A stretch of DNA of 64,000 bases, from assembly GCA_951406725.2 (NCBI GenBank), contig OX597842.1:32426001-32490000 (forward strand). Reading direction: 5' to 3'. The DNA is from Octopus vulgaris (taxonomy: Eukaryota). Of the stretch, positions 9,626-9,713 are shown piece by piece. Numbering within the stretch: position 1 is the first letter of the stretch; each line of letters opens with the position of its first letter. The notes beneath the pieces are model-generated. The model ran no database searches and was not told where the DNA came from. It saw nothing but the letters and a program-made list of their open reading frames with translations. The translations under genes and the position numbers were made by a program.

Positions 9626-9713
9626 TCCGGTACAATTGTTTCATACGAAGACCAGCTTTATTAAAGCTGCAAATATTGCAGCAAATACAAGTGACCCGTA
9701 CTCATCAGCCAAA
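9626..9713 (-). ncRNA. Type I hammerhead ribozyme, intact core
   Basis: Reverse complement TTTGG CTGATGA GTACG...CGTAT GAAAC AATT GTA CCGGA. Palindromic ACAATTGT stem III. Lies in a ~320-bp island flanked by (TA)n. Confidence 0.8.

What the first reader, a model, noticed from the sequence alone, without database searches (positions are those of the whole stretch)
9626..9713. Second intact hammerhead (minus strand), unrelated in sequence but with the same architecture
Seen: TTTGG-CUGAUGA-GTACG...CGTAT-GAAAC-AATT-GUA-CCGGA. Stem III is the palindrome ACAATTGT. The stem II loop holds two overlapping hairpins (cagctttattaaagctg and gctgcaaatattgcagc). The island (~9475-9795) has (TA)n on both sides. 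Inference: a separate element family that shares the design of the 22278 ribozyme.
Basis: partly seen in the sequence, partly recalled or inferred. Interest (0 to 1): 0.7.

Follow-up and report, generated by a model that had tools for sequence, protein, structure and literature searches.

The report
Damaged hammerhead in Hydra-type retrotransposon tail
This is the broken-off tail end of a common protein-coding jumping gene (a Penelope-like retrotransposon) that carries a hammerhead self-cutting RNA motif with an unusually long second arm; the family motif is predicted to cut best as a pair, but this copy has lost 21 bases and likely folds poorly, and cutting is untested.

Summary
The hammerhead is real: an ordinary type I layout with a complete catalytic core, found in none of 200 shuffles. 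It lies in a 321-bp, 5'-truncated end repeat (pLTR) of a Penelope-like retrotransposon with the Hydra-clade motifs, inserted in (TA)n. At least 332 exact motif copies occur in the genome, and full copies with intact RT-endonuclease ORFs carry the ribozyme in both end repeats. 'Intact' is overstated for this copy: a private 21-nt deletion removed the native stem I strand, and it ranks 71-75 of 81 copies for the predicted active fold. Hammerheads in Hydra elements are published. Two details differ: helix II spans 50-85 nt in five families (12-26 nt in the published table), and inverted insertions carry one end about 37 nt and one about 155 nt past the cut site (37 of 40). Copies run through the cut site without a stop. 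Cleavage and expression are untested. This scan reported long-helix-II Hydra hammerheads before, on other DNA of this and other genomes.

The parts
9476..9796 (-). 5'-truncated 3'-end fragment (pLTR plus tail) of a Hydra-type Penelope-like retrotransposon, family A
   Evidence: 84-97% identical copies across the genome; continuous with 3' UTR and GIY-YIG/RT ORF in longer copies
9709..9713 (-). Stem I 5' strand in this copy; partly non-native, brought in by a 21-nt deletion near 9710/9711
   Evidence: alignment to L002; junction pattern has 1 match in the genome, the window itself; contigs of runs X2 and X7 hold the 21 nt
9702..9708 (-). Catalytic core CUGAUGA (C3-A9)
   Evidence: sequence
9643..9701 (-). 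Helix II domain, 59 nt: 7-bp basal helix (G10.1-U11.1 wobble) plus apical hairpins
   Evidence: 98% of cells paired, 2 of 7 pairs with changes on both sides
9666..9682 (-). Apical hairpin a (GCUGCA/UGCAGC)
   Evidence: predicted by RNAalifold; 2 of 5 pairs with a change on both sides, one sequence each
9653..9669 (-). Apical hairpin b; only a 3-bp core is family-wide
9640..9642 (-). Core GAA (G12-A14)
   Evidence: sequence
9632..9639 (-). Stem III, 8-nt palindrome ACAAUUGU; predicted pairing site between two ribozymes
   Evidence: palindrome kept as ACGAUCGU in 3 of 81 rows; self-duplex -6.4 kcal/mol
9630..9631 (-). Predicted cleavage site after GUA (A17 = 9631)
   Evidence: hammerhead numbering, inference
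9626..9630 (-). Stem I 3' strand (CCGGA; family CCGAAA or CUAAAA)
   Evidence: 2 of 6 stem I pairs with changes on both sides in 15 and 16 rows
9705..9720 (-). Copy-specific hairpin predicted to bury the stem I strand and CUGA
   Evidence: MFE fold, coordinates
9588..9594 (-). Short terminus of the family (about 37-42 nt past the cut site); not used by this copy
   Evidence: 35 of 37 alignments ending here run into (TA)n
9476..9485 (-). Long terminus (about 155 nt past the cut site), the end used by this copy; full copies continue from here into the ORF
9434..9475 (.). (TA)n target microsatellite at the element's 3' end
   Evidence: sequence
9796..9809 (.). (TA)n remnant at the truncated 5' end
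   Evidence: sequence
22278..22360 (+). Hammerhead of a second, younger family (B) of the same group: 54-nt helix II, palindrome ACAUAUGU
   Evidence: copies 98-100% identical; GIY-YIG ORF upstream in L072, L087, L089, L092

Best explanation
The island is a truncated end of a Hydra-type Penelope-like retrotransposon inserted in (TA)n, and its hammerhead likely serves the element, cutting tandem or read-through transcripts when two copies pair through the palindromic stem III, while this copy is predicted to fold poorly after a private 21-nt deletion. Shown: family, boundaries, ORF linkage, helix covariation, the deletion, the two termini. Inferred: the element's RT-endonuclease nicked (TA)n, primed inside its own RNA about 155 nt past the cut site, copied back through an uncut or rejoined ribozyme and stopped after about 340 nt; paired cutting would release a 4.2-4.65-kb unit RNA. 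Untested: cleavage, pairing, expression.
For: Longer copies continue upstream into a 3' UTR and a GIY-YIG/RT ORF on the same strand. Full copies have the ribozyme in both end repeats (L136, L137, L138, L143) and 980-1091-residue open frames (L138-L141). Hydra motifs RWK, DKT, CxCx5C, CxxC..CxH are present (defined in PMC8557442). 332 exact motif matches, control 0. The hammerhead structure pairs in 97.2% of 1928 cells; 50 cells change on both sides against 21 in shuffles (0 of 500) and at most 9 when slid. The double hammerhead lies closer to the lowest-energy fold per site than the monomer in 62 of 81 copies and is the lowest-energy fold for L139 and L121. Five families with 28-59% identical proteins all have an 8-nt palindromic stem III. 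Window copy ranks 75, 71, 73 of 81 and 74 of 81. Two internal priming sites and a protein-assisted ribozyme are shown in vitro for the anole Poseidon element (PMC11167929).
Against: No cleavage data. RNAalifold does not return the hammerhead fold; it gives hairpin a and a competing hairpin across the core. The 81 rows were picked with a pattern that demands a near-intact core and come from a few subfamilies, so core conservation is partly built in and covariation counts are not independent events. No genomic footprint of cutting: inverted junctions are as frequent beyond the cut site as before it (61 against 63), no clean chimera at the cut site among 30 of 165 hits inspected, and only 1 of 10 hits (L191) starts at it. 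In the anole element the ribozyme is not needed for insertion in vitro. Energy models do not cover tertiary contacts, and L053, from an undamaged subfamily, ranks as low as the window copy. Units are longer than the <3 kb typical of Hydra, and no tree with reference Hydra proteins was built.
Confidence: 0.85

Rival explanations
1. The ribozyme cuts both end repeats, the unit RNA is circularised by a host ligase, and the circle is the template; this would explain why copies cross the cut site and why upstream repeats vary in length.
For: Full copies extend about 60 to 940 nt upstream of the cut site (L131, L136, L138, L129, L142); paired repeats of one insertion share private variants; no stop at the cut site; proposed in PMC4209133, shown for retrozymes in PMC7229834.
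Against: An uncut tandem precursor gives the same genomic pattern; unprocessed RNA was the main substrate in vitro for the anole element. A ligated junction equals the genomic sequence, so DNA cannot tell.
Confidence: 0.35
2. The ribozyme is a protein-assisted switch or a passenger: silent on naked RNA, it would cut only after the element's protein binds, and is not needed for copying.
For: Monomers are predicted to prefer inactive folds (median gap 2.6-6.4 kcal/mol); the anole Poseidon ribozyme cuts only with protein and mutants insert normally; no cut-site footprint.
Against: Compensatory changes in stems I, II and III and a palindrome kept in five diverged families point to selection on the fold. 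Compatible in part with the best explanation.
Confidence: 0.3
3. The 320-bp island is a non-autonomous retrozyme or SINE-like unit in its own right.
For: Many short copies in (TA)n; retrozymes are reported to derive from Penelope end repeats (bioRxiv 10.64898/2026.07.22.740005).
Against: 5' ends vary freely and run into the 3' UTR and ORF; no head-to-tail array of a 320-bp unit among the loci mapped; one ribozyme per fragment.
Confidence: 0.04
4. This particular copy is an active ribozyme used by the host.
For: All core nucleotides are intact and a 5-bp substitute stem I can form.
Against: Private deletion and substitutions, bottom tenth of predicted folding, no partner copy nearby, repeat-only surroundings.
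Confidence: 0.05

Closest known systems
Hydra clade of C-terminal EN+ Penelope-like elements and their hammerheads, including Hydra-1_Obim (Craig et al. 2021, PMC8557442; passages, sections 6 and 11, supplement part 2 of 59 read)
   Same: Single RT plus C-terminal GIY-YIG ORF; RWK, DKT, CxCx5C, CxxC and CxH motifs; (TA)n targets; sense type I hammerhead near the 3' end; G-U at 10.1-11.1 and A at 17 also occur in File S2; tandem and inverted insertions with a tail at one end.
   Different: Helix II domain 57-60 nt here (50-85 nt in four other families) against 12-26 nt in the 26 Hydra rows of File S2 (counted by hand); perfect 8-nt palindromic stem III; unit 4.2-4.65 kb against generally <3 kb; tail about 115 nt against 30-40 bp; ribozyme sequence unlike Hydra-1_oBim.
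Minimal and variant hammerheads of metazoan Penelope-like elements (Cervera and de la Pena 2014, PMC4209133; parts 1-2 of 4 read)
   Same: In pLTRs, mostly as single motifs from truncated copies, also inverted pairs 100-700 bp apart; palindromic helix III; proposed dimer activity; low activity in vitro.
   Different: Helix II there is 6-8 bp with a short loop; here it carries about 45 extra nucleotides with hairpins.
Poseidon element PAc of the green anole (Frangieh et al. 2024, PMC11167929; parts 1-2 of 4 read)
   Same: Two internal reverse-transcription start sites downstream of the hammerhead define the tail; AT-rich targets; no ends seen at the cut site.
   Different: Other clade; both start sites lie in the ORF, here both lie upstream of it; no strand difference in start site in vitro, whereas here inverted insertions use one site at each end (37 of 40).
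PLE-X1_sMoe hammerhead (Selaginella; File S2 of PMC8557442)
   Same: A Penelope-like hammerhead with a helix II domain of about 54 nt, so a long arm has a precedent.
   Different: Plant, endonuclease-less, Chlamys group; marked as deviating from the canonical structure.
Metazoan non-LTR retrozymes (PMC7229834, passages read)
   Same: Type I hammerhead, short palindromic helix III in amphibians, dimer-assisted cutting.
   Different: Non-coding tandem 150-450-bp repeats; this fragment belongs to a coding element.

Membership tests
Type I hammerhead ribozyme | Core CUGANGA, GAAA, UH in type I order | tested here: met
Type I hammerhead ribozyme | Helices I, II, III supported by covariation | tested here: met
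   8 of 24 pairs change on both sides, 50 cells against 21 shuffled; rows related and pre-selected
Type I hammerhead ribozyme | Match to an Rfam hammerhead model | tested here: not met
   no hammerhead hit to E 10 on the island; none at gathering score in the window and 7 loci; probably due to the long helix II (inference)
Type I hammerhead ribozyme | Site-specific self-cleavage | not testable with these tools
   needs an in vitro assay
Type I hammerhead ribozyme | Loop 1-loop 2 tertiary contact | not tested
   no candidate contact was sought
Hydra clade PLE | Single ORF, RT followed by C-terminal GIY-YIG | tested here: met
   L138, L139, L141; Pfam GIY-YIG E 0.001, below cut-off
Hydra clade PLE | N-terminal RWK motif and DKT in place of DKG | tested here: met
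   RIRWKT (RIRWRT in L139) and PADKTG
Hydra clade PLE | CxCX5C linker; CxxC and CxH around E and N; no CCHH | tested here: met
   CKCRIKSKC, CQLC..E..N..CVH; one cysteine only between the two halves of GIY-YIG
Hydra clade PLE | Insertion in (TA)n; hammerhead near the 3' end | tested here: met
Hydra clade PLE | Generally short (<3 kb); a tendency in the paper, not a diagnostic | tested here: not met
   units of 4199 and 4650 bp, with Asn-rich inserts and long 3' UTRs
Hydra clade PLE | Placement in the clade by RT phylogeny; no IFD | not tested
   no reference Hydra proteins were at hand as tool sequences
Naiad PLE | N-terminal endonuclease, DKA motif, no canonical hammerhead | tested here: not met
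   C-terminal endonuclease, DKT, canonical core
Non-LTR retrozyme | Non-coding tandem repeats of 150-450 bp, each with a hammerhead | tested here: not met
   continuous with a coding element; no tandem short units in the loci mapped

The most novel reading that the evidence does not exclude
The long, branched helix II kept by five diverged Hydra families is a functional module that gates cleavage (a docking site for the element's own protein or a substitute tertiary contact), and two RNAs paired through the palindromic stem III feed an asymmetric RT dimer that primes one DNA strand about 37 nt and the other about 155 nt past the cut site, which would explain the fixed one-long, one-short ends of inverted insertions.
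Probability: 0.2. Interest if true: 0.65.

Novelty: new variant of a known kind. Interest (0 to 1): 0.33.

Why it matters
The locus itself is an ordinary damaged repeat. The family matters modestly: its hammerheads escape Rfam and would exceed the 7-17-nt spacer of a published core descriptor, so ribozyme counts in such genomes are likely too low; young intact copies (L138, L139, L141) give ready material to ask what hammerheads do for Penelope-like elements, which is still open; and the strict pairing of one long and one short end is a clean genomic constraint on how these elements copy both strands.

Tried and rejected
Rfam: no hammerhead model hits (in one search only the top 150 of 783 rows were shown, all microsatellite noise). 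Naiad, first suspected from the zinc-finger-like motifs, rejected on domain order. Re-wired (non-circularly permuted) hammerhead, as in other notes on this genome: not the case here, strand order is plain type I. Search for a cut-site footprint: chimeras at the cut site (30 of 165 and 10 of 10 pattern hits inspected) gave point mutants, diverged sister families, chance hits and one short insertion whose arms start at +1 and +4 (L191); a cluster of junction spacers at 21-25 nt (15 of the 50 sites listed, counted by hand) is confounded by the GTAC palindrome on the cut site and by five identical junctions. Expression: no RNA holder listed; only contigs could be laid, which show neither ends nor strand. 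PDB sequence search: no hit. Pfam found no RT family in 3 proteins. First dimer script crashed; redone. In one search the L005 row was mis-parsed and is not used. Literature searches that found no description of a long helix II in Hydra or cephalopod hammerheads; most subscription journals are not covered, 58 of 59 parts of the Craig supplement were not read, and bioRxiv supplements are closed.

Full report
Observation. On the minus strand the window reads stem I strand TTTGG (9713-9709), CTGATGA (9708-9702), a 59-nt helix II domain closed by GTACG/CGTAT (9701-9643), GAA, the palindrome ACAATTGT (9639-9632), A17 at 9631 and CCGGA (9630-9626). A descriptor finds two such sites in the window (9708 minus, 22283 plus) and none with a palindromic stem III in 200 block-wise dinucleotide shuffles. 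Rfam has no hammerhead hit on the island to E 10, nor at gathering score on the window and seven loci.

What the island is. A search of the window's own 2.8-Gb genome gave 3415 candidates, of which 40 were scored, 84-97% identical apart from the window itself; a strict pattern for the ribozyme has 332 exact matches and 0 in the reversed control. Copies share a fixed 3' end at (TA)n and differ freely at the 5' end. Longer copies run upstream into a 3' UTR and a GIY-YIG endonuclease and RT frame on the same strand. Full copies exist: L136, L137, L138 and L143 carry the ribozyme in both end repeats, cut site to cut site 4199 bp (L136) and 4650 bp (L138), and L138-L141 have open frames of 980-1091 residues. 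The proteins hold RWK, DKT, a CxCx5C linker and CxxC and CxH around the conserved E and N, the features by which Craig et al. 2021 define the Hydra clade (PMC8557442 section 11), which also inserts in (TA)n and carries hammerheads. Membership rests on motifs; no tree was built. The host is likely an octopus: the one named relative is an Octopus gene model with a 70% identical piece.

The ribozyme across the family. 132 motif instances in the loci held then, collapsed to 81 distinct rows, were aligned. The hammerhead structure pairs in 97.2% of 1928 cells; 8 of 24 pairs change on both sides (5 of 500 shuffles reach this), 50 cells do (0 of 500), and slid controls give at most 9 cells. Stem I switches between UCGG/CCGA and UUAG/CUAA; position 10.1-11.1 is G-C in 42, G-U in 31 and A-U in 6 rows, so the wobble in the window copy is a family variant; stem III stays palindromic as ACGAUCGU in 3 rows. 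Caveats: the rows were chosen with a pattern that needs a near-intact core, and they come from a few subfamilies. RNAalifold returns only the apical hairpin and a competing hairpin across the core. In a nearest-neighbour model the double hammerhead lies nearer the lowest-energy fold per site than the monomer in 62 of 81 rows and is the lowest-energy fold for L139 and L121; this fits the dimer model of PMC4209133 but is prediction only.

This copy is damaged. It lacks 21 nt that include the family's stem I 5' strand; the junction pattern has one match in the genome, and contigs of runs X2 and X7 hold the 21 nt. An upstream look-alike supplies a 5-bp substitute with two G-U pairs, and the new junction is predicted to form a hairpin over CUGA. 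The copy ranks 75, 71 and 73 of 81 for the cost of the active fold with three flank sizes and 74 of 81 as a dimer. One undamaged subfamily copy (L053) scores as poorly, so the ranking is a hint, not proof of inactivity.

The shared design. The 22283 ribozyme belongs to a younger family (98-100% identical copies, 2502 candidates, 40 scored) with its own GIY-YIG frame, 28-35% identical to family A. Three further families met while fetching full copies also have long helix II domains and 8-nt palindromes: 50 nt with AUGGCCAU (L036), 51 nt with ACAUAUGU (L149), 85 nt with ACAGCUGU (L147). The 26 Hydra rows of File S2 of PMC8557442 have 12-26 nt there (counted by hand); a Selaginella element in the same table has about 54 nt. 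I found no paper describing the long form in Hydra or cephalopod elements. Earlier notes of this scan report the same long helix II in other families; I read them after stating my reading.

How the copy arose. Family copies end at two places: about 37-42 nt past the cut site (35 of 37 such alignments run into (TA)n) and about 155 nt past it (of 56, by my reading, 42 run into (TA)n, 11 continue into the ORF, 1 joins another family, 2 hit a locus edge). The window copy uses the long end. Inverted insertions carry one end of each kind: 20 of 20 distinct pairs among homology-selected loci and 37 of 40 among sites selected only by their junction (40 of 124 sites, the first listed, five repeats of an identical junction skipped; the other three have one short arm and a diverged second arm; none is long-long). 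A tail at one end only is a known Penelope feature at 30-40 bp, and Frangieh et al. showed that it marks two internal reverse-transcription start sites (PMC11167929); here it is about 115 nt. Copies cross the cut site freely: 63 inverted junctions have spacers of 0-30 nt and 61 of 31-60 nt, full copies extend about 60-940 nt upstream of it, and I saw no clean chimera at it. The template was therefore uncut or rejoined there; DNA cannot tell which.

Verdict. A real hammerhead in a known setting, in a damaged truncated copy. The long helix II and the strict long-plus-short ends are variant features worth a bench test; cleavage, pairing and expression are not shown.

Noticed in passing
L036:1486-5900 (G000:C5:50453500 onward): A family A end repeat stops at the long terminus and joins directly, without (TA)n, to a 5'-truncated ORF (806 residues) of another family that has its own long-helix-II hammerhead; possibly a template jump between families.
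   Followed up: partly
L072, L087, L089, L092 (family of window 22283): The endonuclease of this young family lacks the CxCx5C linker found in the other four families, yet the window copy lies between (TA)n tracts.
   Followed up: partly
L191:1470-1664: Minimal inverted insertion whose two arms begin at +1 and +4 of the predicted cut site; the only such case among 10 pattern hits.
   Followed up: partly
L146:8547-8610: A further hammerhead-like motif with a 32-nt helix II and stem III ACCGUUCGGU, family not traced.
   Followed up: no
L156, L160, L167, L170, L171, L173, L175, L177: Diverged sister lineages share the GUAC/GAAAC..GUA frame with other stem I pairs (GCUA/UAGC, UGCA/UGCA) and other helix II interiors; useful for a cross-lineage covariation test.
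   Followed up: no
window 31600-32330: Tandem repeat with a period of about 60-70 nt, seen as repeated peptides in translation.
   Followed up: no
window 1422-1967, 43348-43620, 48520-48945, 61678-62319: Fragments that look like non-LTR retrotransposon coding sequence (labels recalled, not searched); the window is otherwise microsatellites and a recurring short repeat, with no host exon recognised.
   Followed up: no
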